Source of the DNA: an uncultured Pseudomonadales bacterium
Lineage (GTDB): Bacteria > Patescibacteriota > Microgenomatia > UBA1400 > UBA12028
Length of the DNA stretch: 64,000 bases
Assembly (NCBI GenBank): GCA_964635905.1
Contig: CAZWPK010000001.1
Span: 68,894-132,893, forward strand
Reading direction: 5' to 3'
The notes under the pieces were generated by a model. That model worked only from the letters and a program-made list of their open reading frames with translations, was not told the DNA's origin and made no database searches. This document shows positions 10,736 through 42,669 of this stretch, one piece after another. A program made the position numbers and the translations under genes. Numbering within the stretch: position 1 is the stretch's first letter; each line of letters starts with the position of its first letter.

Positions 10736-10752
10736 TATCTACACATTCTTTG

Positions 10753-12311: not shown

Positions 12312-12437
12312 CCAGAATGCGTGGAAACCACCATTTTCGGTAGACATGATCCGTTCTGCTGTATCTAGAAGTAGAAAGATGTGGATAGATCATGTCTTGA
12401 AGTACGCGGTGAATGTTCTGGTAATGGTTAGTATGAT

Positions 12438-14755: not shown

Positions 14756-14765
14756 AGGAAATGCT

Positions 14766-15263: not shown

Positions 15264-15308
15264 GAATACTATTGACCCCAGTACACTTGAGACTATAATC
15301 AGATATCT

Positions 15309-15599
15309 ATGACAGAGACTACCCTTTATCGACAACTTACAATTGAACAGGTAACCGCAGCAATAGCTCGTAGTCTAGAGGATGCGCGATTCACTGACCA
15401 ACAACAGGTTTTAGTAATCCTACTTGCGCAGGCCCGCATGCTAGCACTAAACGCTCATGTAGGGATCTATAAAGTAGCAGAGGAGAAATCGCAAACTAGA
15501 AAAGTCCAAATCGCTTCCGCGTTGCAATATTTTGCCAGCCGAGCTGGAGAGTCTGATATCTTTGCCGCCTACGAAATCATTCCGGCACCACGGGACTAA
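15309..15599 (+). CDS. hypothetical protein (96 aa)
   Basis: ORF only. Position follows the pilin pair. Confidence 0.4.
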   Translation: MTETTLYRQLTIEQVTAAIARSLEDARFTDQQQVLVILLAQARMLALNAHVGIYKVAEEKSQTRKVQIASALQYFASRAGESDIFAAYEIIPAPRD

Positions 15600-15664: not shown

Positions 15665-17800
15665 CTATTCCTCCGGCACATCCGGAATCGCCGATGCGGA
15701 GGCAATCCCTGCGTCATCCGTCAAGCTGACGGGGGTGTTGACTTTTGGAGTGGCACTTTGGGTCGCCTCAATGGCTTGTGGTCGAGGCGTTGCTGTTGGC
15801 TTCGGGGTTGCAGAAGGCGTTGCTGTCTGTGTCGCCGCTGCGCTGGCGGCATCCCCCAGTTTCTTGCGTAAGGCATCTGCTTCTACTTTAATTTTTTCAT
15901 ATTGTGGATCATCTTGTTTGATCAGAGTGAGAGTCTTATCTAAGTAGGCAAGCTGTTGTGGTTCCTTTTTTACTTCTTTTGCAATATCAGCCAAGTTAAA
16001 GTACGCATTAGCGTAATCTGGTTTGAGTTGGACGGCCTGTTCTAATAATCGAGTAGCCTGGTCTAAGTTTTTCGCGCGGCGGAAAACACCGGCTAAATCA
16101 ACCCGGATTTTAGGATCCGATGGCGCTCGTTGAATGGCTTGAACATAGGCAGCAACTGTCCATTGGTCAGCTTGTTGTGCAGCTCCAATCAGTGCTTCAT
16201 AGATGGTTGCTAAGGTTTGCCAGTTGGCTACATTAGCAGGATCAAGCGCTACTGCAGCTTTTGCTTCATTAATCCCTTGTTGAATCAAGGTGAGCGCTGT
16301 CTTTCGATCATCCTCCGAAGGTTCTTTTTTTTGTGTTAATCCTTGGGCAATCAGTACGTTCGTGTTTGCAAAGGAACGGCGAAATTCCTCATGATGGGGA
16401 GCGATTTGAATTGCACGTCGTGTTAAATCGTACGCATCTTTTGCCTTATTTGCTCGAATGGCAGCTAATGATTGATTAAAAACAGTTTTGGCAATCGCTG
16501 AACGGATGTTAAAGAAAAGGGCAATTCCAGAAAGAGCGCACAAAACCACACAGACAAATCCCAAGACACCAAAAGCAACCTGACGTTCATCCTTACTTGT
16601 CTTATCCTTCGCGTTGACTAATGAGAATTCCGACTCCTCCACTCCCTCACTGGGAAGAGAATAGGAACGGGTATTTGTTGCCCATACCATTGCCAACAAG
16701 GTAAAGAGAGCAAGCAAAATGACATTGACGGGGAGAAGAAGGAAGAGAATGACGATCGTTAGGGTTGCGGCGGCAACAGGTAAGTCTTGTTTCTGTGTTT
16801 TTCTCAGTAACGCAAGAATTCCCAAGCCAATGAGAGCTAGTGCTGATAAACCGACAATTCCATGGGTCACCACAATATCGAGTGGGAAGCTACGAGCATT
16901 TGCGTATCGAATGAACCAGAACTCACCTTGGTTCATGGCAACAGGGCGCAAAATGCTAAAAGCATTGAGATAACTTTCAGTTCCAACCCCTAGGATTGCA
17001 GTACGTGGATTTTTAAGCACATCGAGCGCAATACTCCAACTTTGCTGAAAACTCATTAATACTGGACTTTGTGGTTGACCGGGAAGCAAGAGAGAGGCAT
17101 TGAGGAGCAATCCTAAGACCATGAGTCCACTCATCGCAGCGACAACCAATTTTTCTACAGTTTTCTTTGAAGTTACAAAAAATGTGAGTGTAGCAGCCAA
17201 TGCGACGATAAGCACCGTGGTATTGAGAAGAGGACCTCCATTGGGAAAGATTCCCGAGAGGGTGGAGTTGCCCGCACCAATCAAGGGGTTGAGGTTTATT
17301 CCAACCCGATCGAGCGCAGAAAGGATACTTATTATTACTCCACTGGCACCCAAGGCGTAGACAATTTTTGACGTTAATCGACTATGTAGCAACGCCGTTC
17401 CTAGGAAGTAAAGTAAAGCACAAGCAATATAAAACATTCCTGTCCCAGTCAGAGCTGCCATTTTATTTGGTGCGGAAACAACGATTGACATTAATGTCGA
17501 GAGGAGTAAGACAATAAATCCAAGGTTGAGTGGGGTGCGTGTGATCACTAACTTACGACGGAAAAAGGAAAGAACTGCAAAAAGAGTCAAACCAATCAAC
17601 GCTAGGGCAATGACAATCAGTCGTTTACCACCTTCAAAACTCTCCGGTAGAAAAGGGAGAAAAGCCAACGGAAGCAAGAATGTTAATCCGACAGCACTAA
17701 CGGCACTGAATTTGGAGAGAAGTGAGTTGCGCATAAATAAAACCCTTTGTAGAGCTAACAACCGGAGTATAAGGTTATCGAATATTCTTTCCTTCCACAA
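15665..17800 (-). CDS. O-antigen ligase-like (Wzy_C) polytopic membrane protein fused to C-terminal TPR repeats and a Pro/Thr-rich tail; candidate pilin/protein O-glycosylation ligase
   Basis: About 12 TM in the N-terminal 400 aa, with a loop motif RSFPLDIVVTHGIVGL resembling the ligase H-N-x-x-L...E-x-G-x-x-G block. The C-terminal 250 aa carry TPR-like helices (AYVQAIQRAP, DYANAYFNLADIAK). The tail is ATQTATPSATPKPTATPRPQ. Confidence 0.55.
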   Translation of the reverse strand: MWKERIFDNLILRLLALQRVLFMRNSLLSKFSAVSAVGLTFLLPLAFLPFLPESFEGGKRLIVIALALIGLTLFAVLSFFRRKLVITRTPLNLGFIVLLLSTLMSIVVSAPNKMAALTGTGMFYIACALLYFLGTALLHSRLTSKIVYALGASGVIISILSALDRVGINLNPLIGAGNSTLSGIFPNGGPLLNTTVLIVALAATLTFFVTSKKTVEKLVVAAMSGLMVLGLLLNASLLLPGQPQSPVLMSFQQSWSIALDVLKNPRTAILGVGTESYLNAFSILRPVAMNQGEFWFIRYANARSFPLDIVVTHGIVGLSALALIGLGILALLRKTQKQDLPVAAATLTIVILFLLLPVNVILLALFTLLAMVWATNTRSYSLPSEGVEESEFSLVNAKDKTSKDERQVAFGVLGFVCVVLCALSGIALFFNIRSAIAKTVFNQSLAAIRANKAKDAYDLTRRAIQIAPHHEEFRRSFANTNVLIAQGLTQKKEPSEDDRKTALTLIQQGINEAKAAVALDPANVANWQTLATIYEALIGAAQQADQWTVAAYVQAIQRAPSDPKIRVDLAGVFRRAKNLDQATRLLEQAVQLKPDYANAYFNLADIAKEVKKEPQQLAYLDKTLTLIKQDDPQYEKIKVEADALRKKLGDAASAAATQTATPSATPKPTATPRPQAIEATQSATPKVNTPVSLTDDAGIASASAIPDVPEE

Positions 17801-17839
17801 TAGCAGGTTTTTTAACTTATCTCTAGAGGGATCTCTATG

Positions 17840-20800
17840 CTATGGAGAACCACTGGACGGGCCAAATTTAACCGCACTTCCAGCTTGCATGAGCTTAAGA
17901 ATTTGAGCTTGTGTAAGGGGGTAACTGTAGATTCGAAAGTCATCAATTTTCCCTGTAAACCACGAATCGGGACTATTATCTTCAATTTCTCCGATTGTGG
18001 CATTCTCGGCATCTGTTGCAATATCATCAAACCAATCATCAAGAGTTCCGGTGCCTGCTAACGTTGTGGAAGCCCAGTTAACAGGTTTGGCATTGATGTA
18101 GAGATCGACGCCAGTGCCATCTTGCACATAACAGATATGTTCCCAGGTCTGTCGTCGGACTACATCGTTTGCTGAAAGATAGGTAATCTGATTTGATGTA
18201 GTGCTATTTCGAAGACTTGCGTAAACTGCAGCAGAGTCAGCGCCGGTGTCTGAGATAAAAAAGTTATGTTTGACATTCGATCCAGTGGAGTCAGAATAGG
18301 AAAAGAGTGTTCCTTGTGTCCCTACGTCTGTCGGAACGTCATAATAAAACCAGGAACACAGGGAACCGATAGTTTGGGTATCCATGATGTCATCCGGCAG
18401 CGCAACATAATCATCGGTCCCATCAAAATTAAGGGAGGCGTTAATTTTCCCCGTTGCCCCATTTCCCCAGGCAGTTGAACTTGTGTTACACGTGCCAACA
18501 GCTGTTTGAGACCCTGAACTTGTTCCAAACCAGGTTCCATGGTTTGTGTTTCCACTAACATCATTCATTGCGGTTCCTTGACATTCGTCAAATTGGTAGA
18601 AAAGAAACGGACCACCTCGATTATAGTCATATAGTATCTGTGTTGGTGTTCGTGCGTAGTTATAGATTACCGTGTGATCGATCGTGCCATCAAATAAATT
18701 GGATCCGGCGGATGACTGGCTTCCCCAAGTCAACGTGTTGGCAACTCCCAATCCAAGCCCCATCGTCGCGGTTCCCGTTTGGAGGACTCCGTTAATATAC
18801 AAACTCGGTGTATTACTGGCTCCCACGAAAACTCCAACCAAGTGGTACCAAGTATTGAGGGCGATAGCAGGATTACTCGTCGAACAGCCAGCGGTGTAGT
18901 TGGTATTTGACTTTTCAATTTCAAAGATAACGCGCGAGCCACAGGTTCCATTCGAGCTACCTACTAACGCAAGATGGTAGCCATCCGTACCTCCACTTCC
19001 AATTTGATAGGTCAAAATACGATGATTGATCGCGGCAGAAATCGTATCCACTTTTATCCACGTTTCGACAGTAAAGGATCCTGACCCAACTAGACCAAAG
19101 ATGGAGTTTGCCATCTGCATGACGTCATTATTGCCGTCAAACTGTAGACCGTTTCCAATTTTCCCGCGTAACCATCCCGTGTTTTTGCGATCCTGACCAA
19201 AGTTAGCATTCAGGGTAGCAGTATATCCGTTTCCGGAGGTATCAGGTGCGGACGTTCCACTCTTCTCGTCTAATTTCCATTCCCCTAAGGGAGGCCATCC
19301 CGCTCCATCCGCGAGTTGTCCAGATTCGCTGGCAGCAGTCACACCCAAATTCAAACTTGATCCGGCATTAAAATCCATGGCAATTTCTTGATCAGACATG
19401 ACTGTTTGGTAAATCTTAAACTCATCAATATACCCCTGATACCCATAGGTAGCCGAGGAAAGACCTTGGTATCCTCCAACATACGGTGTCCCGGTGTTGA
19501 CTTCAGCAGCACTATCAGAATAGGTGTCGGTATCAACATGTCTGCCGTTGTAATAGGTCTTGATAACTTTATTGACCCGATCATGAGAGATGGCGATATG
19601 CTGCCAGCTCCCCACCACAATTGGTGCCCCTAGCGTCACTTGAATTGCTGAACTCCCATTGGCGTATTGATACTGAAAGAGGGTTCCACTGACGTTAAAG
19701 TAGATCCAGTGAAACCCTACTGATGTGCTTTGTGCTCCGCGGTTATACAGTGTCGGCAGGGTAGAATTAGTCAAGGAAGTGGGATTAATCCACATACTAA
19801 AAGTGATGCCATCTTTGCCATCGATTGCAGGGCTGGATGTACCAGTGATAATGTCTCCAGAACCATCCATAGACAAGGATCCGTTTACTTTCCCATTCTT
19901 TTTAAAACTTGCGCCGGTAACTGTACCATTGTCCGTTCTACTTCCTGTATGGTGAGCAATAGCACCGGAGGATTCATCCATCGCCCAATACAAACTTGGA
20001 GAGAGGTTTTGGACGGTAGTCCGACTTCCATTGAAGTCTTGGTTGACTAAGCGATACGTTCGCTCGTAGTTGTAGATTATTATCTCATCTACGGAGCCAG
20101 TAAAATCATTCGAGGTGCCATCAGCATCAATTCCGATATACAGTGGATCGGAGTTGGTTAGCGTATTGGTTGCCGTCAACGAAGAATCGGTGGCAATCAG
20201 TAATCCATCGATATAGAGTTTTAGACTTGTAGCACCTAATTTCACACACTCTACATGATGCCAAGTATTGTCATCGTAGGTTGCCGCCGTGGACGTCGCA
20301 GAGTCGGTCGGTGACCAAGTCGAGTCATAATCTAACCCACACGTAATATCCCCATCCGATTCCATAATGACCTTGTAGCCAGCCTCGTTAAATTTGGACA
20401 GAATGACTTCTTGGGCAGAAGCGGTTTCATGTTTGAAAAAGAGGCTAATCGACATGTCCGCATCATCGGCAAAATCAAAATCAGCATCATCGGCACGTGT
20501 TAAATGCTGATTGGATCCAGCAAAGGCAATTCCTGATCCATATTTTCCGGTCTTCCAAGTCGGGGTATTCGTTAAGGTGAGCTCATTATCTCGTGTGGAA
20601 GTATCAAGCGCCGTACTCCCGCTATTATCGTCAAGATTCCAGTACCCAACAGGACTGGGGGGTGTGGCGTACAATTGCCGAATTTCTGCAGGACTTAACG
20701 CGCGATTATAGATACGTGGTTCATCGATTAGACCATCGTAATAGTCCGATCCCCCGAAGGAATAATGCGCAGCTCCCACGAGAAAGGTTTCACCGGTGTC

Positions 20801-22501: not shown

Positions 22502-22645
22502 AGTATGCCAATTTTTTCTTGATTGTACTAGGGATAAATCAACAGTGAAGGAACAATCTACAAGATCATATTGCTACAAAAACATCCATACCATGACAAA
22601 AAAGACTCACAATATAGGGCGAAGCATCAGAACAAAACGACCATT

Positions 22646-36500: not shown

Positions 36501-39500
36501 CAGATAATGCTGCAGTGAAATCAAAGGCGATCGCGTCAGCCGCTACACTGATTCCAGTTCCAGCACCAATGTTGAGTGTTAATGCGCCAACAGTCCCACC
36601 ACCGGTGAGTCCGGATCCTGCGGTAACTCCGGTGGTGGCATAGGTTGCCACATTGTTGGAGTCTACTAAGGTACCTGATCGACCATCGAGGAGCAATAAT
36701 TCTGCTGTGGAAAGTGTTCCACCCGTAACCGTCAGATTGTTGGATCCAAGAGCTAACGTTCCTGCTGCCGTAATGGTTCCTCCAGTGAGTGTGATGCTAT
36801 CGGAGGCAAAGGCAATCGTAGGATCGGTTGCCCCTGCATCGAATGTCCAGGTGATTCCCGATCCCGATCCAAAGGTCGTCGTTCCAACTTCCGTCGAATC
36901 CCAAGCGATATCATCCGCGTTAATATCGATAGCCGTGCCTTCACCAATATTTAAAGTGACATCTCCAGATACTCCTCCGCCTGTTAATCCTGAACCAGCA
37001 ACGACGGAGGTAATATCTCCAGCACCACCGATACCGGTAACATCGATCCAACTTAAGACTCCGGCGCCATCCGTAATCAAGACCTGGTTGGAACTTCCAT
37101 CGTTAGTTGGGAGGGTGTAGGTTACATCTTGGGTTTGGGTTCCAGTTTGGAACACGGTGGAATAGGCATTGTCACCATTGGAGATCAAAGCTAATTTTCC
37201 AGGGACGTTACTACTACCACTGCCAATGTCGGTTCCGATGGTGATTCCTGTTGCTCCGGCGACATGGAGTGCAGAGGAGGGTGTTTGGGTTCCAATTCCT
37301 ACGTTGGCGGCAATGATGTTGACCTCATCCGTCGCTTGATCATCAAACTCAATGCGTCCTGCAGAAGCACCCAATCCTAACCAGTCATCATCCGCAGTGG
37401 CATCGGTAAACACGTCGCCAGTTGCCATCGAACCGACAGTAGTGATGTCGCCAGTTCCAGCACCAATTCCAGTTACCGATTGCCAAGAGAGAACGCCACT
37501 CCCATTGGTAGTGAGCACATAATCACTGGTACCGTCATCCACGGGTAAGGTGAGGGAATAACTACCTGTTTGAGAGGCGCTTGGTTGGAGAGTCACTGAG
37601 TAATCGGTAGCTCCAAGTTCGTTGTAAACAACGATTGATCCGTCTGTTCCATTACTTCCAAAAGTTGCAGTTCCACCGTTCACCGCGAGTGTACCAGACG
37701 TAGAAATGTTTCCAGAACCATCAACTTGGAATGCATTAGCGGTTCCACTTGCTAATGTTCCTGAGACATCGAGATTTCCAGTAATCCCTGTTGAAGTTGC
37801 TGCAATGGTGAGCGCATCGGAGGCAAAGGTAAACGTCGGATCGGTGGCTCCGACATCAAAGGTCCAGACGACTCCAGATCCTGAACCGAACGTGGTTGTT
37901 CCCAGTTCGGTGGAATCAAAGGTCACGGTGGGACTCCAAGCTTCTCCGGCAGTTCCAGAAACATCGATGGCTGTGCCTTCGGTTAAGCCCGCGACATAAT
38001 TACCGGTTGTATCGGTACCTAGTGCCACGGAATCGGCTGCGATGGTGAGGGCGGTGGTGTTACTTGCCCCTAAGGTTGCAGTCACGTCGCCAGTGAACGT
38101 GTGGCCAGAGAGAAGTACCGTACCTGTGAGGTCAGGGAAGGTAATGGTCTTGTCTGCACTCGTTGCATCCGCAACCGAGAAATACGTTTCAATCGTATTG
38201 GCCGTCGCACCTTCAAAGATAAGCCCCGAGACACCAAACTTTGATTCGTTAGCGGCTAGTGTGTGATCTCCAGAAAGAGCAGCCGTGAAGTCAAAGGCAA
38301 TCGCGTCAGCGGCTACACTGATTCCCGTTCCCGCTCCGATATCCAGGGTGACGTCGCCGGAAGCTCCGCCGCCAGTGAGTCCTGATCCAGCCGTTACAGA
38401 AGAAATATCTCCAGCAGCTCCTGCGGTAATGGCGGCATCTAAATCATCCAAGACATCCTGAACGGTAGTGGAATTGGAATTGGTAAACTCATCAAAGACT
38501 CCAACCAGTGAGGAACCGGAGGTGATGTTTGTTGTACCCACATCGTTTAAGCCGATCGTTCCAATCGTTAAATCTCCACCGGCATTGACGGTGAGGTTGA
38601 CGACATCCGTAACAGTTCCGGTGTTGATATCAATCCCATTGATGGTTTCATCGGTGGCGGCACTGATGGTACTGGCTGTGACAATGGCACCAGCCGTTGA
38701 AATAGACCAATCATCCCCACCTGTTAACGCCAGCGTTGTAGAAGCGTTGTTGTTCCCAATCGTAATCACATCCGCAGCTGTACTGTTGGTTGCGATGTTA
38801 ACGGTATCTGCAGCAGAGGAGCTGACACCCGCAATATCGATCGTCTTTCCGGTGGTGTTGTCCCCGATGTTAATTCTCCCCGTTCCTTCAATCAAAATAT
38901 CATTGCGGACATCGGTGTTATTGGCGATGACAAAGTTATCGGCATCCACACTGATGTAATAATCTTCAGCTGCAGAAGTGGTGTCATTAAAATAGAGGGT
39001 AGGATCAGCCTGTTGGAATGAATGATCACTGGTCCACACAAAGGCATAGGCCTGATCAACGGCAACGCTATCCGTTGCAACGGTAATTCCATTTCCAGCT
39101 CCAACATCCAAGACTCCGGTAGTCAAGGTAAGTCCATTTCCGGCAGTGGTACTGGCCAGCTCTAGTGCGGCTGTCCATCCTTCCCCAGCAGTTCCGGTTA
39201 CGGTAATTCCATTGGTACCAGTGACGTTGGCGACATAATTTCCGGTTGTATCGGTACCTAGTGCCACGGAATCGGCTGCGATGGTGAGGGCGGTGGTGTT
39301 ACTTGCCCCTAAGGTTGCAGTCACGTCGCCAGTGAACGTGTGGCCAGAGAGAAGTACCGTACCTGTGAGGTCAGGGAAGGTAATGGTCTTGTCTGCACTC
39401 GTTGCATCCGCAACCGAGAAATACGTTTCAATCGTATTGGCCGTCGCACCTTCAAAGATAAGCCCCGAGACACCAAACTTTGATTCGTTAGCGGCTAGTG

Positions 39501-42500
39501 TGTGATCTCCAGAAAGAGCAGCCGTGAAGTCAAAGGCAATCGCGTCAGCGGCTACACTGATTCCCGTTCCCGCTCCGATATCCAGGGTGACGTCGCCGGA
39601 AGCTCCGCCGCCAGTGAGTCCTGATCCAGCCGTTACAGAAGAAATATCTCCAGCAGCTCCTGCGGTAATGGCGGCATCTAAATCATCCAACACATCCTGA
39701 ACAGTGGTTGACGCGGAGTTTCCAAATTCATCAAACACTCCAACTAGTGAGGCTCCGGAAGTAATGTTATCCGTTCCAACATCGTTCAAGCCAATCGTGC
39801 CAATGGTCAGATCTCCACCGGCATTGATGGTCAAATTCACCACATCCGAGACGGTACCGGTCGTAATATCAATGCCGTTAATCGTCTCATTGGTTGCAGC
39901 GGTGAGTGTCCCCGTGGTATTGAGGTTCCCTGATGCATCCACTTGGAAGGCGTTGGCAGTTCCAGAGTTGAATGTTCCGGAGACATCGAGGTTTCCTGTA
40001 ATTGCGGTAGCGCCTGCGGCAATGGTGAGTGCATCGGAAGCAAAGGTCAGGGTGGGATCGGTGGCACCAGAGCCATCGAAGGTCCAGGTGAAGTTCGAGT
40101 TCGCTCCAAAGATGGTGGTGCCGACTTCAGTCGAATCAAACGTGACGGTGGGACTCCATCCTTCACCTGCGGCACCGCTAATATCAATCGCAGTTCCTTC
40201 GGTGAGTCCGGCAACATAGTTCCCAACGGTCTGGGTACCTAAGTCAACGGCATTATTGGCAATCGAAATATTGGCTTCATTGGACGGTGAGGCGATCAAG
40301 GAAAATTCTGTGCCAAAATCCAAGGTATCCACGTTGGTGCCAACCGCAACATCATTATTCTCCACGTTGACCACGGCAAACGAAGCACCCGTATCGGATC
40401 CACATTCCCACAAACTGGTCGCATCATTCCATTTCAGAACTTGGCCATCCGAACACCCTTGGAGTAATCCAATGCGATCGGTGTCGACTTCTAGTCCCGA
40501 TGCAGATCCCGTGGATCCCGTACCATCGGCCGAAATCAATTGCAGGGCATCGGCATCCAAATATCCTGTGGCGGTTGTCAGCGTAACTGGTGTAGACCCA
40601 GCCAGCAATTGACCACTTACCAGGACGTTTCCACCGGAGAAGACAAATTGATCAGAGGTATTATAGGACAAACTACCAGTATCTCCAGTGGATGAATACA
40701 GCGACAGGGTTGCATCGGCAGTGGCGCCAGTCCCAATCCGAACCAGGTTACTTGCCACATTCACGGAAAAAGAAGAGGCTAGGGTAGAGCCACCAATCGC
40801 AACGTCATCCGTCGTGGCGGTAAGGTAGGAGAGGGTTCCGGAGTCTGTCCACTTGGAAGCACCCGATCCCATGGCAGAGTCAAAATCATCCAAGACGTCT
40901 TGAAGCGTCGTTGCATTGGAGTTATTAAATTCATCATACACACCAATCAAGGCTGCTCCGGAGGTGGTGTTACTGGAGCCGATGTCATTGAGTCCAATCC
41001 CGCCAATCGACAGATCTTGACCCGCTGTTAAGTTCAGAGAACCCGCACTGTTAATGGTTAACACGTCGGTTCCATCCGAAGCTTCGATCACAAAGTAGTT
41101 TGCAGTTTGGGTGCTGTTTCCTTGAATGAGGAATTGGATCTCATCGCTATCGCCATCAATGCCTAGTTTTGCTAAGTCGAGTGTCGAGCCAATAGTCAGA
41201 TCATCCGTGGTTGCGGTCAGATAGGTTACATCTCCACCATCCGTGAAGAGATTTAAGGATGCGCCATCGCCCCAACTGAAGCCACCGGTTGCAGAGTTAT
41301 AGGAGAGCAGCGCCCCATTAGCTGCGGTTCCAGAGACTTTGATATCGACAGCTGCGATACTGCCATCTTCTAACTCAGCGGAAGCAATCGAGGTCCCTAA
41401 ACTGGTTTGCAAGGATCCATTGGAGACTAAGAGTCCCGTGCCGGTCAAGTCCGTAAAGGAATCTCCATTCAGTGAGAGGGTACCAATCGTTGCCGTGGTG
41501 AGTTGGGCGTTGGGACCATACAAGGTGCCGTCCAATTCAATGTCCCCTGAAACGAATAAATCTCCGGCTGCGGAGTCAATACTTCCTGGAGTGGAATCTC
41601 CAATCAACACCGCTCCACCACCCGGATCAATGACAAGATCTCCCGGCGTTGAAAGCGTATTCCCCGCAATGGTTAAGTCTCCGCCTACGGTTGTGGTACT
41701 CGTGGCGGATCCAATGGTGATGAGCTGGGCAATCGACGGGAAGATGGAAGCGGATGTTACGGAGGTGAGCAACTGTCCACTTTCCAGGGTTAAGGAGCCA
41801 GCAATGGTTGCGTCTTTTGCCACACGGAAATTCTCATTGAGCACGGTATCAACGTTGAGCGAGAAGCGTGTGTACTCTAAGGCGGTGCTACCTAAGATAA
41901 CCGACGGCATCTGCACTGATTCCGGAGCTTTTTTGCCCAAAACGAGGAATCTAGGAGCTTGTAATCGAGGAAGACGGAAGCCTAAGGCAATCGTCTGTAG
42001 TTTTGCAAACTCCACACTGGGAGTACTCGTCACGATCAAGGACGAGAGAGCAAGTAGGGCAATACAACACACCGTTACCAAGGCTGGGCGCAGATCCGCA
42101 ATACTGAGGCTTGGAAACGACACCGTGGGGAGATGGAAAGAAGGTAGCCGTAAGGAGAGCTGCTTGTGCGTGGAAACGGAGTGGGTGATCGAGGACCTCT
42201 CAACGAGTGGTGCGGATACGATGGGTGTACTGGTGGTTGCCACTACAGTAGGGGTGACCGCCGTTTCGCCATAGGGAACGGAAGTGGAGACTGGGGCAGT
42301 ATATAACCCGCGTTCGATGGCTTTCTTGTGTTTCTTGAATTCCTGAAGTTGGAGATACGAATAGCGTCGGTGACCTCCCAAAGTTCGAAGCGGTTCTAAG
42401 ATTCCACGATCTTCCCAGCGTCGGAGAGTTTTTTCAGAAACTTTAAGGATCCTGGCGGCCTCTTGAATGGAAAGTGAGCTAGTATCGAAGTGATTTTCCG

Positions 42501-42510
42501 GCAAACTCAT
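27553..42510 (-). CDS. giant (4985 aa) repeat-rich surface protein: N-terminal MerR-type HTH, single TM anchor, long tandem-repeat ectodomain, phage tail-fibre-like modules
   Basis: Uninterrupted 14958-nt ORF. Residues 13-52 (SIQEAARILKVSEKTLRRWEDRGILEPLRTLGGHRRYSYLQL) match the MerR/excisionase HTH. TM at residues 143-162. At least 8 near-identical units of about 410 aa (NETINGIDITTGTVSDVVNLTINAGGDLTIG...). Motifs NVGIGTQTPSSALHV and NVGIGTTGPDGKLDV resemble the fibre-module signature GNVGIGTTxPxxKLxV. Gly/Thr/Ser-rich beta-solenoid-like composition. Confidence 0.8.
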   Translation of the reverse strand: MSLPENHFDTSSLSIQEAARILKVSEKTLRRWEDRGILEPLRTLGGHRRYSYLQLQEFKKHKKAIERGLYTAPVSTSVPYGETAVTPTVVATTSTPIVSAPLVERSSITHSVSTHKQLSLRLPSFHLPTVSFPSLSIADLRPALVTVCCIALLALSSLIVTSTPSVEFAKLQTIALGFRLPRLQAPRFLVLGKKAPESVQMPSVILGSTALEYTRFSLNVDTVLNENFRVAKDATIAGSLTLESGQLLTSVTSASIFPSIAQLITIGSATSTTTVGGDLTIAGNTLSTPGDLVIDPGGGAVLIGDSTPGSIDSAAGDLFVSGDIELDGTLYGPNAQLTTATIGTLSLNGDSFTDLTGTGLLVSNGSLQTSLGTSIASAELEDGSIAAVDIKVSGTAANGALLSYNSATGGFSWGDGASLNLFTDGGDVTYLTATTDDLTIGSTLDLAKLGIDGDSDEIQFLIQGNSTQTANYFVIEASDGTDVLTINSAGSLNLTAGQDLSIGGIGLNDIGSSNTTSGAALIGVYDEFNNSNATTLQDVLDDFDSAMGSGASKWTDSGTLSYLTATTDDVAIGGSTLASSFSVNVASNLVRIGTGATADATLSLYSSTGDTGSLSYNTSDQFVFSGGNVLVSGQLLAGSTPVTLTTATGYLDADALQLISADGTGSTGSASGLEVDTDRIGLLQGCSDGQVLKWNDATSLWECGSDTGASFAVVNVENNDVAVGTNVDTLDFGTEFSLIASPSNEANISIANNAVDLGTQTVGNYVAGLTEGTAIDISGAAGEGWSPTVTFDSTEVGTTIFGANSNFTWTFDGSGATDPTLTFASDALTIAAGATAITGNLDVSGTFNSGTANAFQVDASGNLNTTGTLTAATNETINGIDITTGTVSDVVNLTINAGGDLTIGTIGLNDVGTDNITSGASLVGVFDEFGNSASTTVQDVLDDLDAAITAGAAGDISSVTAGSGLTGGGASGDVTLDIGAGTGISVAADAIAFDFTAALSGDHTLAANESKFGVSGLIFEGATANTIETYFSVADATSADKTITFPDLTGTVLLSGHTFTGDVTATLGASNTTALTIAADSVALGTDTTGNYVANVTGTNGITVTGTAGEGWTAALELASTTAGNGLTLTTGVLDVGAGNGITVATDSVAVDQAYAFVWTSDHSFQQADPTLYFNDTTSAAEDYYISVDADNFVIANNTDVRNDILIEGTGRINIGDNTTGKTIDIAGVSSSAADTVNIATNSTAADVITIGNNNASTTLALTGGDDWSISTAGAIVTASTISAATDETINGIDINTGTVTDVVNLTVNAGGDLTIGTIGLNDVGTTNITSGSSLVGVFDEFTNSNSTTVQDVLDDLDAAITAGAAGDISSVTAGSGLTGGGASGDVTLDIGAGTGISVAADAIAFDFTAALSGDHTLAANESKFGVSGLIFEGATANTIETYFSVADATSADKTITFPDLTGTVLLSGHTFTGDVTATLGASNTTALTIAADSVALGTDTTGNYVAGLTEGTAIDVSGTAGEAWSPTVTFDSTELGTTTFGSGSGVVWTFDVGATDPTFTFASDALTIAATSTGITGNLDVSGTLASGTANAFQVDGSGNISTSGTLAVNGGTATFGSNGTDGSIVVYNELGATDYSVTLQPSASQTGSYSLTLPVDDGTSDYVLTTNGSGVLSWQSVTGIGAGTGDITTVGSMATGDVFTDATADDDWLGLGASAGRIEFDDQATDEVNIIAANVGIGTQTPSSALHVAGATGITIGTDIGSGSSNVPGKLALISNGDNAYSTVFQTGTQTQDVTYTLPTNDGSSNQVLITDGAGVLSWIDVTGIGGAGDITSVVAGSGLTGGGVSGDVTLNIGEGTAIDINADDIAWDSTEVGTTTFGSGSGITWTFDAGATDPTIAFASDSITLTGGTITAAGTLALGSNNLTVTGGTLSTAELLLLDGRSGTLVDSNNVATYATTGVTAGSGLTGGGTVGALTLNIGAGTGISVAADAIAFDFTAALSGDHTLAANESKFGVSGLIFEGATANTIETYFAITDPTASDKTITFPDLSGTVLLSGHTFTGDVTATLDSDNSTGLTIAADSVALGTDTTGNYVAGLTEGTAIDISGSAGEAWSPTVTFDSTELGTTTFGSGSGVTWTFDVGATDPTLAFASDALTITAGSTAVAGNLDVSGTLTSGTGNAFQVDASGNVNTTGTLTAATNETINGIDITTGTVSDVVNLTINAGGDLTIGAIGLNDVGTDNITSGASLVGVFDEFGNSASTTVQDVLDDLDAAITTASAGDISSVTAGSGLTGGGVSGDVTLDIGAGTGISVVADAIAFDFTAALSGDHTLAATESKFGQSGLIFEGATANTIETYLAVTDPTTTDKTITLPDLSGTVLLSGHTFTGDVTATLGASNTTALTIAADSVALGTDTTGNYVAGLTEGTAIDISGTAGEAWSPTVTFDSTELGTTTFGSGSGITWTFDVGATDPTLAFASDALTITAGSTAIAGNLDISGTLTSGTGNAFQVDASGAITAATAETINGIDISSGTVTDVVNLTVNAGGDLTIGTIGLNDVGSDNITSGASLVGVFDEFGNSASTTVQDVLDDLDAAITAGAAGDISSVTAGSGLTGGGVSGDVTLNVGEGTAIDINADDIAWDSTEVGTTTYGSGSGITWTFDAGATDPTIAFGSDTMTLTAGTITTAGTLALGSNNLTITGGTLSTAELLLLDGRSGTLVDSNNVATYATTGVTAGSGLTGGGTVGALTLDIGAGTGIAVNANDIAFDFTAALSGDHTLSANNAKFGQSGLIFEGATTNTIETYFTVTDPTTSDKTITFPDLSGTVLLSGHTFTGDITATLGASNTTALTISSDSVALGTDTTGNYVAGLTEGTAIDVSGTPGEGWSPTVTFDSTELGTTTFGSGSGVVWTFDVGATDPTLTFASDALTITAGSTGITGNLDVSGTLTSGTANAFQVDASGNLNTTGTLTAATNETINGIDITTGTVSDVVNLTINAGGDLTIGTIGLNDVGTDNITSGSSLVGTFDEFANSASTTVQDVLDDLDASITTALAGDISSVTAGSGLTGGGVSGDVTLNIGEGTAIDINADDIAWDSTEVGTTTYGSGSDFTWTLNGSGVTDPTLAAGNNSLTLTAGTITAAGTLALGSNNVTVTGGTLSTAELLLLDGRSGTLVDSNNVATYATTGVTAGSGLTGGGTVGALTLNIGAGTGISVAADAIAFDFTAALSGDHTLAANESKFGVSGLIFEGATANTIETYFSVADATSADKTITFPDLTGTVLLSGHTFTGDVTATLGAANTTALTIASDSVALGTDTTGNYIAGLTEGTAIDVSGSAGEAWSPTVTFDSTELGTTTFGSGSGITWTFDAGATDPTLAFASDALTITAGSTGITGNLDVSGTLISGTANAFQVDASGAITAATAETINGIDINTGTVSDVVNLTINTGGDLTIGAIGLNDVGTDNITSGASLVGVFDEFGNSASTTVQDVLDDLDAAIAGSGGDITSVVAGSGLTGGGITGDVTLNVGEGTAIDINADDIAWDSTEVGTTTYGSGSGFTWTFDAGATDPTLAFASDSMTLTAGAITAAGNLTVSGTTGLTLSGVGGDITFANGEKIDNDTDGTVTITAPTTAVSGDLSVGGGDITTAGGENIDLGEATADTATFYINSVAELALNATNLTAGAAEGNSLGSAAAEWEQLFLGDDNGIAFGLDQDWTLGYDEATDDRLELVTAGTSGMLIQSATATGTGLATTFNALSSGTGLALSSTSTALTSGSLASLDWSPGSATTASGDLFRINIGTNGTTTGNLFDIEDTGSSLFSVSESAITANLPTSFTAAGDVSMAYDLLFTNQTAAYIKSYGPLILQAGESFENNNLSFQTYGTGNAVFDFQGTGDVVINSADPNIILDTKTATDTDFWLGVQEDAGSDDDDLFQIGDGTTPGTNAFLTINTSGNVGIGTTGPDGKLDVLATSGSQLRLTYADGSTYSDLTTDTNGDLTIAPSGGDLTLSGNTTISGTTGLTLSGVGGDITFANGEKIDNDTDGTVTITAPTTAVSGDLSVGGGDITTAGGENIDLGEATADTATFYINSVAELALNATNLTAGAAEGNSLGSAAAEWEQLFLGDDNGIAFGLDQDWTLGYDEATDDRLELVTAGTSGMLIQSATATGTGLALSVNALSSGTGLSLASTSTAFTSGFLANFDWSPGSATSATGDLFRINIGTNGSTSGNLFSVADTASSLFSVSETAITAALPVAFNAPGDVSMAYDLQFTNQTTSSIKSKAPLYIEAGENYESNDLTLRTYNGGDIVADLTGTGNFVVSNTSTSVTGTTATDLNVAGGFITTNDLDTISLLVRNGNTGAITMTNVGTAGAQGDPGVLTVEGAGSSTTAYNLITAYNSLTRSDAASVFRVRADGTVYGEAAFQTTGADLAEYFEKEGDLPTNEVVGINYETGKVRRFQSGDKLLGITSNRAGFVGNYPKGKTDEQIAASYALVGFTGQLDVKLDDQEGSIRPGDPLRPSTQSGRATKANKPGYIIGYALEAWTPGSGDRDVLVYVNPSFADPTMALDNQGQMVADGLAQLASNPEAEANKTLIRSIAASLSEIVESTSNVFTTLIAGTIQSSSIQTDTLTVGGKSLHNLVIDTIAQNGYLVSQSERVDTREASISGILTAAEATISGNLTAKNITEMANRLITAEASISSLLAQDSTISGQQKDELLASLNPEIKLIVSDLLSDSADWNTEASSSADLISADAVFANEYLNVQGTASITNAHINTALIVGSSMAFDKNSINLISDTESTLYVQATGTGTLDLLAGALTLNREGGLVVTTDALFTQDVTVQGQLSTTLIAPESKILGIQLASESGVLSSESGKLAIKSGMTEVASIDASGSATFAKLTLSAPTTASGSATNASTGKAVLKQGQTDVIIYTTQVSSDSLIYITPTSSTNNQVLYVSGKQGQDETTTTVGGFTVTLDQALSKDVEFNWWIIN
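30041..31680. repeat. direct duplication of about 1.26 kb inside the giant gene (type B unit x2)
   Basis: 30041-30420 is base-identical to 31301-31680. It encodes two copies of TISGTTGLTLSGVGGDITFANGEKIDNDTDGTVTITAPTT...GMLIQSATATGTGLA. Confidence 0.75.
32600..40250. repeat. tandem array of near-identical coding repeats of about 1.24-1.34 kb inside the giant gene (type A, at least 7-8 units)
   Basis: Identical stretches can be seen directly, e.g. 38042-38266 = 39281-39505. Repeated protein blocks AT[N/D/A]ETINGIDI[T/N/S][T/S]GTV[S/T]DVVNLT[I/V]N[A/T]GGDLTIG recur. Array boundaries are approximate. Confidence 0.7.
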
Positions 42511-42557
42511 ACATGGGTAAGTTTTTAACTCAGTCTCTTTTCGTTAACCTCTTGATC

Positions 42558-42669
42558 AAATGTCCAATTCTTGTTTTCGTTTTATGTCCAAATTTAGTAG
42601 ACCATTTTTTCGCACCCGGTGTCAAGCATGGAAATTGGACATTTTTATGAGTAAAAGTCCAAGTTTTTA
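42558..42669. promoter_or_regulatory. cluster of four AAATGTCCAA(A/G)TTT-like motifs in the divergent intergenic region upstream of the giant gene
   Basis: aaatgtccaattc (42558-42570), tatgtccaaattt (42583-42595), inverted aaattggacattt (42633-42645), aaagtccaagttt (42654-42666). A fifth copy aaatgtccaagttt lies at 43252-43265. Confidence 0.45.

What the first reader, a model, noticed from the sequence alone, without database searches (positions are those of the whole stretch)
15665..42510. A co-directional 27-kb block of surface genes abutting type IV pilin genes: a candidate host-attachment module
Four minus-strand genes follow one another with almost no spacing. The giant gene's stop overlaps the LamG-2 start by 16 nt. 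There is a gap of about 145 nt between the LamG-2 stop (22646) and the LamG-1 start (22501), then 39 nt between the LamG-1 stop and the Wzy start. The gene order is giant (4985 aa), LamG/DUF2341 protein 2, LamG/DUF2341 protein 1, then a Wzy_C-TPR ligase-like protein. Convergent on it are two type IV pilin genes with their own promoter, preceded by an ABC-2 exporter. All three large proteins are N-terminally anchored and lectin- or fibre-like. This would make sense as machinery for attaching to a host cell or surface and for glycosylating surface filaments. It is plausibly the main accessory system in this window and, as an ensemble, undescribed.
Basis: inference. Interest (0 to 1): 0.8.

Follow-up and report, generated by a model that had tools for sequence, protein, structure and literature searches.

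The report
Membrane-tethered giant fibre with lectin partners
An ultrasmall (Patescibacteria) bacterium encodes a 4985-residue phage-tail-fibre-like surface protein next to two fast-evolving lectin-array proteins, a likely host-attachment kit, and the fibre unexpectedly starts with a DNA-binding domain whose probable binding sites sit at its own promoter.

Summary
The four co-directional minus-strand genes are real, with small corrections to the spacings. The organism is a Microgenomates-type Patescibacterium.

- **Conserved core.** A giant-family gene lies just upstream in 25 of 43 informative related loci.
- **Accessory genes.** The WaaL-fold/TPR protein follows the LamG genes in only 3 of 30 informative loci, plus the window's own clade. 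The pilin and ABC genes are neighbours only in close relatives, with one exception.
It has a cytoplasmic MerR/BldC-like HTH, then one transmembrane helix, then about 4250 acidic Thr/Gly-rich residues. It ends in a phi29-gp12-type autoproteolytic chaperone domain with an invariant D-x-A-E motif.
- **Operator-like box.** AAnTTGGACAt is five-fold enriched within 300 nt upstream of genes for this HTH family, mostly within the last 100 nt. It occurs upstream of 60 of 72 non-redundant loci and four times before the giant here.
- **LamG paralogues.** They share about 430 identical nucleotides at the 5' end and evolve much faster than their neighbours.

Verdict: a new variant of a known kind (surface adhesin modules of episymbionts), with a possibly new membrane-tethered autoregulatory feature. 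The function remains inferred.

The parts
42511..43379 (.). 869-nt non-coding region between the giant gene and the divergent orf272. It carries a cluster of AAnTTGGACAt boxes at 42558-42567, 42582-42591, 42635-42644, 42653-42662 and 43252-43261, and a TTGACA...TACTAA promoter-like element.
   Evidence: 5 of the 7 TTGGACWTWW sites in the 64-kb window lie here. There is a perfect 12-nt inverted repeat at 42558-69 / 42633-44. The same box is enriched upstream of homologous HTH genes elsewhere.
27553..42510 (-). Giant gene: 4985 aa, 496 kDa. Layout: HTH, linker, TM helix, acidic Thr/Gly/Ala/Ser-rich repeat ectodomain, Peptidase_G2 autochaperone, C-terminal domain ending FNWWIIN.
   Evidence: Single uninterrupted ORF. 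Pfam MerR, HTH_17 and Peptidase_G2 hits. Composition and pI. Family of 2000-4500-aa relatives with the same N-terminus.
42304..42474 (-). MerR/BldC/excisionase-like helix-turn-helix, residues 13-69 of the giant. Predicted cytoplasmic; residues 1-135 have pI 9.9.
   Evidence: Pfam MerR 44.0 bits against a cut-off of 28.2, and HTH_17 35.2 bits against 27. NCBIfam BldC 40.2 bits, below its cut-off. The KTLRRWE and GGHRRY motifs are invariant in the family.
42013..42090 (-). Single predicted transmembrane helix of the giant, about residues 141-166.
   Evidence: Hydropathy scan. A TM-like segment follows the HTH in 70 of 80 homologous ORFs.
31685..41025 (-). Six to seven imperfect copies of a roughly 1.0-1.8-kb (mostly ~1.3-kb, about 450 aa) coding repeat inside the giant, 60-100% identical at the DNA level.
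   Evidence: Direct-repeat families D1-D16. Diagnostic peptide motifs recur 5-6 times.
29593..31329 (-). Two copies of a roughly 160-aa module (residues 3728-3886 and 4148-4306). Apart from the HTH motifs, this is the part of the giant that matches distant homologues best (48-64% identity).
   Evidence: tblastn against related loci. 1260-nt direct repeat D18.
27556..29241 (-). C-terminal fragment, residues 4424-4985, beginning at the predicted autocleavage motif D4424-L-A-E-Y-F-E. It is a phi29 gp12-type intramolecular chaperone followed by a beta domain shared with orf272 and a conserved C-terminal end.
   Evidence: Pfam Peptidase_G2. PDB 3GQH aligned from its residue 1. A family profile hits phi29 gp12 6QZ9 residues 685-747 at E 2.3e-5, with D-x-A-E invariant. 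The motif and the C-terminal end are conserved in homologues.
22646..27553 (-). LamG-2: signal/anchor helix, DUF2341, and at least six ConA-like LamG domains. 1635 aa from the ATG.
17840..22501 (-). LamG-1: signal/anchor helix, DUF2341, and at least six LamG domains. 1553 aa.
22005..22434 (-). 5' segment of LamG-1 that is 100% identical over about 430 nt to 27069-27498 in LamG-2. It covers the end of the anchor helix and the DUF2341 module, a trace of recent gene conversion.
   Evidence: Local DNA alignment. Protein identity over residues ~20-175 and about 30% afterwards.
15665..17734 (-). Ten-helix membrane protein with a WaaL/O-antigen-ligase-like fold, an extracytoplasmic TPR domain and a Ser/Thr/Pro/Ala-rich tail. 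689 aa.
14219..15263 (+). Two tandem type IV (pseudo)pilin genes, 14219-14755 and 14763-15263, convergent on the block.
   Evidence: N_methyl, T2SSG and GspG-like hits. Prepilin motifs.
15309..15599 (+). 96-aa ORF of unknown function between the pilins and the Wzy-like gene. It is conserved in L005 at 62.5% identity. It is preceded by the best sigma-70-like match in the region and followed by a hairpin terminator shared with the convergent gene.
11259..14020 (+). ABC-2 type exporter: one ATPase and two ABC2_membrane_6 permeases. A neighbour of the block, not a conserved part of it.
   Evidence: Present only in the close relative L005.
43380..44198 (+). orf272: signal peptide, a beta domain homologous to the giant's post-cleavage domain, and three C-terminal TM helices. 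Divergent from the giant.
   Evidence: A conserved homologue lies next to iPGM in L010.

Best explanation
The conserved unit is a two-component cell-surface apparatus of Microgenomates-type Patescibacteria. The rest of the 27-kb block is looser company.

(1) The giant protein is a type II membrane protein.
- A basic MerR/BldC-like HTH stays in the cytoplasm and one helix crosses the membrane.
- About 4250 acidic Thr/Gly/Ala/Ser-rich residues built from ~450-aa repeats form a long extracellular fibre.
- By analogy with phage phi29 gp12 and other tailspikes, the C-terminal Peptidase_G2 intramolecular-chaperone domain would nucleate folding of the fibre, probably as a trimer. It would then cut itself off before D4424, exposing the distal tip (inferred).

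(2) The translationally coupled DUF2341-LamG proteins are exported by an N-terminal signal or anchor. They consist of a constant docking module (DUF2341, kept identical between the two paralogues by gene conversion) and variable arrays of lectin-like LamG domains. These arrays would bind glycans or glycoproteins on a host cell (inferred). Constant anchor plus variable binder is the layout of phage receptor-binding proteins.

(3) The giant's HTH most likely binds the AAnTTGGACAt boxes that bracket its own promoter. That would make the fibre a membrane-tethered autoregulator of its very costly gene (inferred from the motif statistics).

(4) The WaaL-fold/TPR protein is a recurrent but optional partner. 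It may attach a lipid-linked glycan to a surface protein or the envelope.

(5) The pilin and ABC genes are neighbours without demonstrated functional linkage here. DUF2341 is, however, linked to type IV filaments elsewhere.
For: - **Architecture of the giant:**
- **The family is real.** 29 cluster representatives match at E<1e-30, several of 2000-4500 aa, some of which align from the HTH through the TM to the start of the fibre. 217 confirmed relatives were found in metagenomes. Of the 80 ORFs examined (75 of them from the 80 metagenome loci kept), 70 have a TM after the HTH and 71 run beyond the 2.5-kb flank.
- **Autochaperone.** Pfam Peptidase_G2 is above its cut-off. Alignment to phi29 gp12 starts exactly at its post-cleavage residue. 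A family profile hits gp12 at E 2.3e-5 with D-x-A-E invariant. The motif is present in 13 homologous giants.
- **Giant-to-LamG linkage.** TAATG overlap. 25 of 43 informative loci. Same order and same chromosomal backbone in L010.
- **LamG variability and constant N-module:**
- **Operator boxes.** 5 of 7 window sites lie in the 869-nt upstream gap. Density is 4.6 boxes per kb upstream of HTH genes, against 0.93 upstream of other ORFs in the same loci. 60 of 72 non-redundant loci carry at least one. The top three enriched 6-mers all overlap the box. 96 of 112 boxes lie within 100 nt of the start. Both orientations occur, with recurrent spacings of 13 nt (direct) and 18-22 nt (inverted).
- **WaaL fold:**
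- **DUF2341 and type IV filaments.** Prepilin-DUF2341 fusions occur in Minisyncoccus archaeiphilus (L081) and L084. Archaeal Epd pilus loci carry DUF2341 genes (PMC4858521, PMC10133366).
- **Functional analogues:** Bdellovibrio MAT fibres (PMC10769870) and the LamG operons of nanohaloarchaea (PMC10266531).
Against: - There is no experimental data for any member. Surface location, trimerisation, self-cleavage, DNA binding and host binding are all inferred.
- I could not obtain a confident structure for any part of the giant. The only usable model is of the Wzy-like protein.
- The residue before the predicted cleavage site is Ala here, whereas gp12 has Ser.
- 18 of 43 informative loci have LamG genes without a detectable giant upstream, so the partnership is not obligatory.
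- The TTGGACA boxes could be bound by another regulator. They also occur upstream of family members whose ectodomains I did not characterise.
- The HTH scores below the NCBIfam BldC cut-off and lacks the MerR dimerisation helix.
- The ligase-like protein lacks invariant His/Arg in its membrane domain in a 10-sequence alignment, so it may not be catalytic.
- The internal repeats are up to 100% identical over 300 nt, so the repeat number in the assembly may be wrong.
Confidence: 0.55

Rival explanations
1. Giant, both LamG proteins, the Wzy-like ligase, the two pilins and the ABC-2 exporter form one functional system that builds and glycosylates an attachment filament.
For: - In L012, at 24-49% identity, the order is giant, LamG, a co-directional pilin gene, then Wzy-TPR.
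- Wzy-TPR follows the LamG genes in L015 and L055 and in the window's clade.
- Three adjacencies in 30 loci is far above the roughly 0.1 expected for a single-copy gene (the expectation is my estimate).
- Wzy_C-family enzymes include pilin O-glycosyltransferases (established knowledge: PilO, PglL).
- DUF2341 is fused to prepilins in L081 and L084.
Against: - The pilins and ABC genes are missing at the equivalent place in the 47%-identity relatives L001/L002, although the flanking OBG and response-regulator backbone is retained.
- Among 66 downstream neighbours from the related loci, N_methyl is not among the 25 most frequent families and TPR occurs in only 4.
- Wzy-TPR occurs alone among housekeeping genes in L006-L009.
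- There is no PilB/C/D/M/T in the window.
- The pilins are convergent, so they are on a separate transcript.
Confidence: 0.2
2. The giant and the LamG proteins are structural envelope components (a sheath, S-layer-like coat or matrix) or nutrient-capturing glycan binders. They are not host-attachment devices.
For: - The proteins have an acidic, Thr/Ser/Gly-rich, low-Cys composition typical of surface-layer and matrix proteins.
- LamG/ConA-like domains also occur in glycan-degrading and glycan-binding enzymes. Weak Pfam hits to polysaccharide lyase and 3-keto-disaccharide hydrolase are seen.
- No host is known for this organism.
Against: - Rapid divergence and gene conversion of the LamG genes relative to their neighbours are more typical of partner recognition.
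- The fibre has a phage receptor-binding-protein style autochaperone.
- The genes are absent from some relatives that keep the same backbone (L006), so they are not an essential envelope component.
Confidence: 0.15
3. The block is a prophage or tailocin remnant. The giant and the LamG proteins are tail fibres or virion proteins rather than cellular genes.
For: - The Peptidase_G2 chaperone is a phage tailspike domain.
- The LamG arrays hit PHROG 'virion structural protein' families.
Against: - No capsid, terminase, portal, integrase or tail-tube genes are present. The flanks are iPGM, ATP synthase, OBG, tRNAs and an ABC transporter.
- The same chromosomal position is kept in a distant relative.
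- Scanning 2.9 million viral contigs with the giant's C-terminus found no relative.
- An N-terminal HTH plus a TM anchor is not a virion-attachment design.
Confidence: 0.03
4. The N-terminal HTH does not regulate the giant's own promoter. The TTGGACA boxes belong to another regulator or promoter element. The HTH instead serves as a cytoplasmic docking or chromosome-tethering domain, or is a domesticated excisionase without sequence specificity.
For: - The domain also matches excisionase and IS607 HTH models.
- It lacks the MerR effector and dimerisation region.
- No binding data exist.
Against: - The box tracks genes encoding this HTH across 60 of 72 non-redundant loci, while neighbouring genes in the same loci show background density.
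- The recognition-helix and wing residues are invariant although the rest of the protein diverges to about 30% identity.
- The boxes occur in both orientations and in multiples, unlike a -35 element.
Confidence: 0.3

Closest known systems
Bdellovibrio bacteriovorus MAT (mosaic adhesive trimer) fibres (PMC10769870)
   Same: These are cell-encoded, phage-tail-fibre-like fibres used by a bacterium that lives on other bacteria. They have a conserved cell-proximal N-terminal part and variable distal binding parts. Some members carry a C-terminal autoproteolytic chaperone, and some tips are lectin folds.
   Different: MATs are about 1000 aa, have a signal peptide followed by a conserved beta domain, and use the S74 (Ser-Lys) chaperone. 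The giant here is 4985 aa, is anchored by a TM helix preceded by a cytoplasmic HTH, and uses the G2 (Asp/Glu) type. The lectin domains are on separate partner proteins.
Phage phi29 gp12 pre-neck appendage / Peptidase_G2 intramolecular chaperone (PDB 3GQH, 6QZ9)
   Same: There is sequence homology around the cleavage site, with D-x-A-E aligned to D692-F-A-E695 of gp12. The domain lies C-terminal to a long beta-rich fibre region.
   Different: Only about 65 residues align. The residue before the Asp is Ala, not Ser. About 560 residues follow the site, against about 160 in gp12. The host molecule is a cellular membrane protein.
Membrane-bound one-component transcription factors (ToxR/CadC type) and eukaryotic MYRF (PMC3742440)
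   Same: The order is an N-terminal DNA-binding domain, a single TM helix, then an extracytoplasmic part. MYRF additionally combines a DNA-binding domain, a phage-type intramolecular chaperone and a TM helix in one protein.
   Different: ToxR and CadC use winged-helix OmpR-type domains and small periplasmic sensors. [quoted passage not shown] Here the chaperone is ~4250 residues beyond the membrane helix, on the extracellular side, so its cleavage cannot release the HTH.
BldC / minimal MerR-like and excisionase HTH proteins
   Same: A roughly 60-residue MerR-type HTH without an effector domain. BldC binds arrays of direct repeats (my recollection of Schumacher et al. 2018). Direct GTCCAA repeats 13 nt apart recur here.
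   Different: BldC is a free 68-aa cytoplasmic protein. The match here is below the NCBIfam cut-off (40.2 against 77 bits), and the domain is fused to a giant membrane protein.
DUF2341 proteins of archaeal Epd type IV pilus loci (PMC4858521; PMC10133366)
   Same: Large DUF2341 proteins, often two per locus, are proposed as pilus-associated adhesins. One is required for transformation in Methanococcus maripaludis.
   Different: Those genes lie inside pilus assembly loci. Here no assembly genes are nearby, and the conserved partner is the giant fibre rather than pilins.
LamG-array operons and giant 'SPEARE' surface proteins of nanohaloarchaea (PMC10266531)
   Same: Ultrasmall episymbionts devote several per cent of the genome to giant membrane-anchored proteins and to multi-LamG proteins encoded in operons with fibre-like adhesins.
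   Different: They are not homologous to the giant here. SPEARE proteins carry a VirB4/TraG-like ATPase. No HTH or G2 chaperone is reported for them.
WaaL / Wzy_C O-antigen ligase superfamily (PDB 7TPJ), including the pilin O-glycosyltransferases PilO and PglL
   Different: The window protein does not hit Wzy_C. About 80 residues of the domain seem to be missing relative to P0008. No His or Arg is invariant in the membrane part. It has a long extracytoplasmic TPR domain.

Membership tests
Peptidase_G2 intramolecular chaperone (phi29 gp12 type) | Sequence match above the curated Pfam threshold | tested here: met
   PF11962 scores 37.8 bits for the whole protein and 48.5 bits for the 240-aa segment, against a cut-off of 25.
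Peptidase_G2 intramolecular chaperone (phi29 gp12 type) | Asp and Glu of the D-x-x-E cleavage motif aligned with gp12 D692/E695. That these are the catalytic residues is my recollection of Xiang et al. 2009. | tested here: met
   D4424-L-A-E4427 aligns to residue 1 of the cleaved gp12 fragment 3GQH. D, A and E are invariant in 12 family members. The profile hits 6QZ9 residues 685-747 at E 2.3e-5.
Peptidase_G2 intramolecular chaperone (phi29 gp12 type) | Self-cleavage and trimerisation of an upstream beta-helical fibre | not testable with these tools
   No deep alignment was permitted for structure prediction of the giant, and there is no experiment.
MerR-family transcription regulators | MerR-type HTH above the Pfam threshold | tested here: met
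   PF00376 scores 44.0 bits against 28.2. PF13411 scores 40.8 bits against 21.6.
MerR-family transcription regulators | C-terminal coiled-coil dimerisation helix and effector-binding domain | tested here: not met
   The HTH is followed by a Ser/Thr/Pro/Val-rich linker and a TM helix. Only positions 1-57 of the 69-position MerR_1 profile match.
BldC family | Score above the NCBIfam cut-off; a small free protein | tested here: not met
   NF033787 scores 40.2 bits against a cut-off of 77. The domain is part of a 4985-aa protein.
Membrane-tethered autoregulator (functional class, not a sequence family) | Cognate operator at its own promoter | tested here: inconclusive
   The AAnTTGGACAt box is 5-fold enriched upstream of HTH-family genes, in 60 of 72 non-redundant loci, and occurs 4 times within 152 nt of the giant's ATG. 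Binding itself is untested.
Wzy_C / O-antigen ligase superfamily | Pfam Wzy_C match | tested here: not met
   No hit even at E<10 for residues 1-450. Homologue P0008 does hit: 48.3 bits against 31.7, residues 251-403.
Wzy_C / O-antigen ligase superfamily | WaaL-like multi-helix membrane fold | tested here: met
Wzy_C / O-antigen ligase superfamily | Conserved catalytic His/Arg in the extracytoplasmic loop | tested here: inconclusive
   The invariant membrane-domain columns of A1 contain no His or Arg; the only charged one is K37. The position of the usual H-N motif reads R-S here and F-N in P0008, by my reading. There is no residue-level structural alignment.
DUF2341 (PF10102) | Pfam match above threshold | tested here: met
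   31.7 and 34.7 bits against 23.4. The CGDLRFT motif is conserved in 77 related loci.
Laminin_G_3 / ConA-like lectin superfamily | Repeated domain matches | tested here: met
   Six stretches in each protein, at E 1e-131 and 4e-124.
TafC (haloarchaeal Tat-fimbria subunit) | Score above the NCBIfam cut-off | tested here: not met
   208.7 and 144.8 bits against a cut-off of 410. Only the LamG-like C-terminal part of the model matches.
Type IV pilins / pseudopilins (the two convergent genes) | Class III signal peptide G|F(T/S)L(L/V)E followed by a hydrophobic helix; pilin globular domain | tested here: met
   N_methyl scores 29.6 and 27.5 bits against 21.2. T2SSG scores 21.2 and 25.2 bits against 21. 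The motifs are seen.
Type IV pilus gene cluster (the block as a whole) | Assembly ATPase, platform protein and prepilin peptidase in the locus | tested here: not met
   No T2SSE, T2SSF or peptidase_A24 hit among the ORFs of at least 150 aa that were scanned, which cover most of the window. The rest of the genome was not available.
Prophage / tailocin | Capsid, terminase, tail-tube or integrase genes nearby; relatives in viral contigs | tested here: not met
   The flanks are housekeeping genes. The viral-contig scan found none.

The most novel reading that the evidence does not exclude
The giant is both an adhesion fibre and a transcription factor. Three HTH domains, clustered at the membrane by the trimeric fibre, occupy the TTGGACA boxes at the gene's own promoter. 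The state of the fibre would then feed back directly on transcription. That state could be a nascent chain, the assembled fibre, or a fibre under load or clipped after host contact. One version is cis-autorepression by the first 70 residues made, which would allow only one round of this 15-kb gene at a time. Another is release of the HTH by intramembrane proteolysis on attachment. The evidence here points to a widespread, undescribed class of 'HTH-TM-giant ectodomain' proteins in Patescibacteria: 217 confirmed metagenomic relatives, most of those examined large and membrane-anchored, sharing one operator motif.
Probability: 0.3. Interest if true: 0.85.

Novelty: new variant of a known kind. 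Interest (0 to 1): 0.62.

Why it matters
How ultrasmall Patescibacteria recognise and hold on to host cells is largely unknown outside a few cultured Saccharibacteria.

This locus defines a recurrent gene pair in Microgenomates-type lineages: a phage-fibre-like giant plus fast-evolving DUF2341-LamG lectin arrays with a constant docking module. It gives concrete candidates for host-range determinants and for antibodies or labels in enrichment cultures.

The N-terminal DNA-binding domain, with a conserved operator-like box, gives a directly testable idea. A giant adhesin may control its own expression from the membrane. That could also explain how tiny cells with about 1-Mb genomes budget the synthesis of a 0.5-MDa protein.

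The work also corrects the picture of a unified pilus and glycosylation system. Those genes are optional neighbours.

Tried and rejected
- **Whole-giant homology search:** timed out.
- **Exact-sequence look-ups** of LamG-1 and of the Wzy-like protein: not on record.
- **Tandem Repeats Finder:** missed the giant's repeats because their period exceeds 500 nt. The repeat finder was used instead.
- **DUF2341 plus first LamG model:** low confidence (mean pLDDT 58; about 79 for the DUF2341 part). Foldseek gave only weak LamG/galectin-like beta-sandwich matches, none at E<=0.001. Nothing could be learnt about what DUF2341 docks to.
- **TafC:** the NCBIfam similarity is generic LamG similarity below the cut-off.
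- **Prophage idea:** rejected.
- **Promoter and terminator scans:** not above chance, so no statement on operon boundaries can be drawn from them.
- **LamG N-termini as cryptic prepilin signals:** considered and rejected. They lack the G/S-F-T-L-x-E motif and the Glu5. They look like Sec signals with a small-x-small site just before the conserved Trp.
- **Small ORFs between giant and LamG in other loci:** these are four-helix-bundle (23S-IVP-like), GIY-YIG and transposase-like inserts, not pilins.
- **Literature:** searches for an HTH-fused giant protein in Patescibacteria found nothing. The library is incomplete.

Full report
**Observation**

The junctions need three corrections.
- The giant ends ...AAC TAA and LamG-2 most plausibly starts at the ATG embedded in TAATG (27553). 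That is a 1-nt stop/start overlap. The 16-nt overlap belongs to the longest ORF, which starts at a GTG.
- The gap between LamG-2 and LamG-1 is 144 nt, as stated.
- The last gene starts at the ATG at 17734. This is the start of a 100% identical database protein of 689 aa. The gap to LamG-1 is therefore 105 nt, not 39.

Pattern scans for promoters and terminators give no more hits than shuffled sequence, so they say nothing about transcription units. A hairpin terminator lies between the convergent 96-aa ORF and the Wzy-like gene.

**Organism and setting**

Database names for relatives of the last gene identify a Patescibacteria (CPR) bacterium. Related loci come from Levy-, Davies-, Shapiro-, Roizman-, Gottesman- and Woesebacteria, CPR3, WWE3 and similar groups.

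The block sits in a housekeeping backbone. On one side are LPG synthase, EamA, OBG, two tRNA-Ala genes and the ABC-2 exporter. On the other are iPGM, ATP synthase, LeuRS and ComEA/ComEC. No phage genes and no pilus assembly genes are in the window.

**The giant (4985 aa, 496 kDa, pI 4.05)**

- Residues 13-69 are a MerR/HTH_17-type helix-turn-helix. Pfam gives 44.0 bits against a 28.2 cut-off. The best NCBIfam match is BldC, below its cut-off.
- Residues 1-135 are basic, with pI 9.9.
- A single TM helix follows at about residues 141-166.
- Next come about 4250 residues rich in Thr, Gly, Ala, Ser and Asp with almost no Cys. They are organised as six to seven copies of a ~450-aa unit that are 60-100% identical in DNA.
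- Two copies of a 160-aa module follow. Apart from the HTH motifs, it is the part that matches distant homologues best (48-64% identity).
- At residue 4424 the sequence D-L-A-E-Y-F-E aligns with the first residues of the self-cleaved C-terminal fragment of the phage phi29 gp12 appendage (PDB 3GQH). Pfam Peptidase_G2 is above threshold. A profile of 12 family members hits full-length gp12 at residues 685-747 (E 2.3e-5), and D-x-A-E is invariant.
- The C-terminal end (...FNWWIIN) is also conserved.

The combination is not an artefact of ORF calling. An exhaustive HMMER search with residues 1-420 finds 29 cluster representatives at E<1e-30. Several of them (2022-4486 aa) align continuously from the HTH through the TM helix into the fibre.

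**The LamG proteins**

Each has a positively charged N-terminus and one hydrophobic helix. A small-x-small motif lies directly before the conserved Trp that opens DUF2341, so a cleavable Sec signal is as likely as an anchor. At least six Laminin_G_3 domains follow.

The two paralogues are identical over residues ~20-175 and about 30% identical afterwards. At the DNA level, about 430 nt are 100% identical, starting inside the coding region. This indicates recent gene conversion of the DUF2341 module.

Against the close relative L005, LamG-1 and LamG-2 are 58.6% and 63.3% identical. The flanking genes are 86-97% identical. A constant N-terminal module with rapidly diverging lectin arrays is the design of receptor-binding proteins.

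**The last gene**

Pfam sees only TPR repeats. Wzy_C is not detected even at E<10. A homologue at 28% identity does pass Wzy_C.

The fold is therefore ligase-like. About 80 residues of the domain seem to be missing relative to the homologue, and no His or Arg is invariant in the membrane part. Catalytic competence is open.

**Which genes belong together**

I anchored on the Wzy-like protein, the giant's N-terminus and the DUF2341 module.
- A relative with 86% identity (L005) has the same order, including the 96-aa ORF, both pilins and the ABC genes.
- Relatives at 47% identity (L001-L004) keep LamG-LamG-Wzy/TPR. They have no pilins or ABC genes, although the OBG and response-regulator backbone is retained. 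L001 has no giant upstream.
- At 24-28% identity the Wzy-like gene stands alone among housekeeping genes.
- L010 is a metagenomic contig at about 30-40% identity. It has LeuRS, ATP synthase, iPGM and an orf272 homologue on one strand. On the other it has an HTH-TM gene (532 aa), a 2919-aa fibre gene and a DUF2341 gene overlapping it by 11 nt.

A scan of 185,579 species genomes with the DUF2341 module gave 77 loci. Fifty-two Patescibacteria loci, including L010, were used for the census.
- 25 of 43 informative loci have a giant-family gene within five ORFs upstream on the same strand.
- There are one to three LamG genes per locus.
- Only 3 of 30 informative loci have Wzy-TPR within three ORFs downstream: L012, L015 and L055.
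- A Pfam census of 66 downstream neighbours shows no common partner. TPR occurs in 4, 23S-IVP in 4, NDK in 3 and M23/LysM in 3. N_methyl is not in the top 25.
- L012 is the one distant locus with the full order: giant, LamG, pilin, Wzy-TPR.

The conserved core is therefore giant plus DUF2341-LamG. Wzy-TPR is a recurrent accessory, far above chance but in a minority of loci. The pilin and ABC adjacency is local synteny.

**Link to type IV filaments**

DUF2341 is fused to a canonical prepilin N-terminus in the cultured Minisyncoccus archaeiphilus (L081) and in L084. It marks large proteins in archaeal Epd pilus loci, one of which is needed for transformation (PMC4858521, PMC10133366). A relation between DUF2341 proteins and pili is plausible in general. 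It is not shown for this locus.

**An operator-like box**

The 869-nt gap upstream of the giant holds five of the window's seven TTGGACWTWW sites. Four lie 48-152 nt before the ATG, around a TTGACA...TACTAA element, and they include a perfect 12-nt inverted repeat. L010 and L088 showed the same box before their HTH-giant genes.

I then scanned metagenomes with the N-terminal alignment and found 217 confirmed relatives, of which 80 loci were kept.
- In the 300 nt upstream of 81 such genes the box occurs 4.6 times per kb. Upstream of other ORFs in the same loci it occurs 0.93 times per kb.
- 60 of 72 non-redundant loci carry it, and 29 carry two or more.
- In an unbiased 6-mer ranking the top three words are TGGACA, GGACAT and TTGGAC.
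- 96 of 112 boxes lie within 100 nt of the start codon.
- Both orientations are equally common. The recurrent spacings are 13 nt (direct) and 18-22 nt (inverted).
- The HTH recognition residues (KTLRRWE, RTxGGHRRY) are invariant while the rest of the protein drifts to about 30% identity.
- 70 of 80 ORFs have a TM helix after the HTH, and 71 run beyond the 2.5-kb flank.

The simplest reading is that this HTH binds the box at its own promoter. This is inference; nothing has been measured.

**Mechanism proposed**

What the sequence shows directly: the domain order, the conservation of the gene pair, the D-x-A-E motif, the constant/variable design of the LamG proteins, the WaaL-like fold, and the box enrichment.

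What is inferred:
- The fibre is extracellular and probably trimeric, folded from its C-terminal chaperone, which then removes itself.
- The LamG proteins dock through DUF2341 and bind host glycans.
- The HTH autoregulates the gene from the membrane.
- The Wzy-like protein modifies a surface acceptor.

**Comparison with known systems**

The closest functional precedent is the MAT fibre family of Bdellovibrio (PMC10769870). The closest sequence relative of the C-terminus is phi29 gp12. The HTH-TM order recalls ToxR/CadC. The combination of a DNA-binding domain, a phage chaperone and a TM helix recalls eukaryotic MYRF (PMC3742440), but the topology differs. Giant and LamG proteins of episymbionts have been noted before (PMC11809585, PMC10266531).

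I found no description of this family or of the box in the searchable literature.

**Verdict**

This is a new variant of a known kind. The membrane-tethered HTH and its operator are the most interesting and most testable element.

Noticed in passing
window 42511-43379: Unusually long (869 nt) non-coding gap for a ~1-Mb-genome organism. It holds a cluster of AAnTTGGACAt boxes and a perfect 12-nt inverted repeat. Rfam finds no known RNA there. The equivalent gap in L010 is 526 nt.
   Followed up: yes
window 22005-22434 and 27069-27498: About 430 nt are 100% identical between the 5' parts of the two LamG genes. The identity starts inside the coding sequence and decays abruptly. This indicates recent gene conversion that keeps the DUF2341 module constant.
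   Followed up: yes
window 43380-44198 (+): orf272 has a signal peptide, a beta domain homologous to the part of the giant just after its predicted cleavage site, and three C-terminal TM helices. It is divergent from the giant and has one TTGGACA box 128 nt upstream. Homologues occur next to iPGM in L010 and downstream of the LamG genes in L063. It could be a membrane receptor or dock for the fibre.
   Followed up: partly
window 29593-30069 and 30853-31329 (giant residues 4148-4306 and 3728-3886): A duplicated ~160-aa module is 48-64% identical to distant homologues, far more conserved than the rest of the fibre. It has no Pfam or PDB match and its function is unknown.
   Followed up: partly
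window 37991-38290 vs 39230-39529: Two 300-nt stretches inside the giant are 100% identical. The repeat copy number in a short-read assembly could be wrong.
   Followed up: no
L012 9477-9908, L063 9036-10037, L018 5601-6678, L059 3978-5053, L076 5279-5968 and others: In related loci the short space between the giant and the LamG gene is repeatedly occupied by four-helix-bundle (23S rRNA IVP-like), GIY-YIG and transposase-like ORFs. This may be a hotspot for selfish inserts.
   Followed up: partly
L081 9509-10792 and 12780-16079 (Minisyncoccus archaeiphilus chromosome); L084 8672-9940: Canonical prepilin N-termini are fused directly to DUF2341 (427 and 422 aa) and to a LamG-containing protein (1099 aa).
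   Followed up: partly
window 54676-56880 (-): A 734-aa TrwB/VirD4-type coupling-protein ATPase. [quoted passage not shown]
   Followed up: no
window 10248-10825: Two tRNA-Ala genes (GGC and CGC anticodons) lie about 430 nt apart, with a 127-aa minus-strand ORF between them.
   Followed up: no
window 15272-15599 (+): The best sigma-70-like match of the region (TTGACC-16-TATAAT, 11 of 12) precedes the 96-aa ORF of unknown function. That ORF diverges as fast as the LamG genes (62.5% identity to L005).
   Followed up: no
record titles of L012, L014-L016, L027, L030 and others: Many public MAGs that carry these clearly patescibacterial loci are labelled 'uncultured Gammaproteobacteria/Pseudomonadales bacterium' in their record titles. 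This is probably mislabelling.
   Followed up: no
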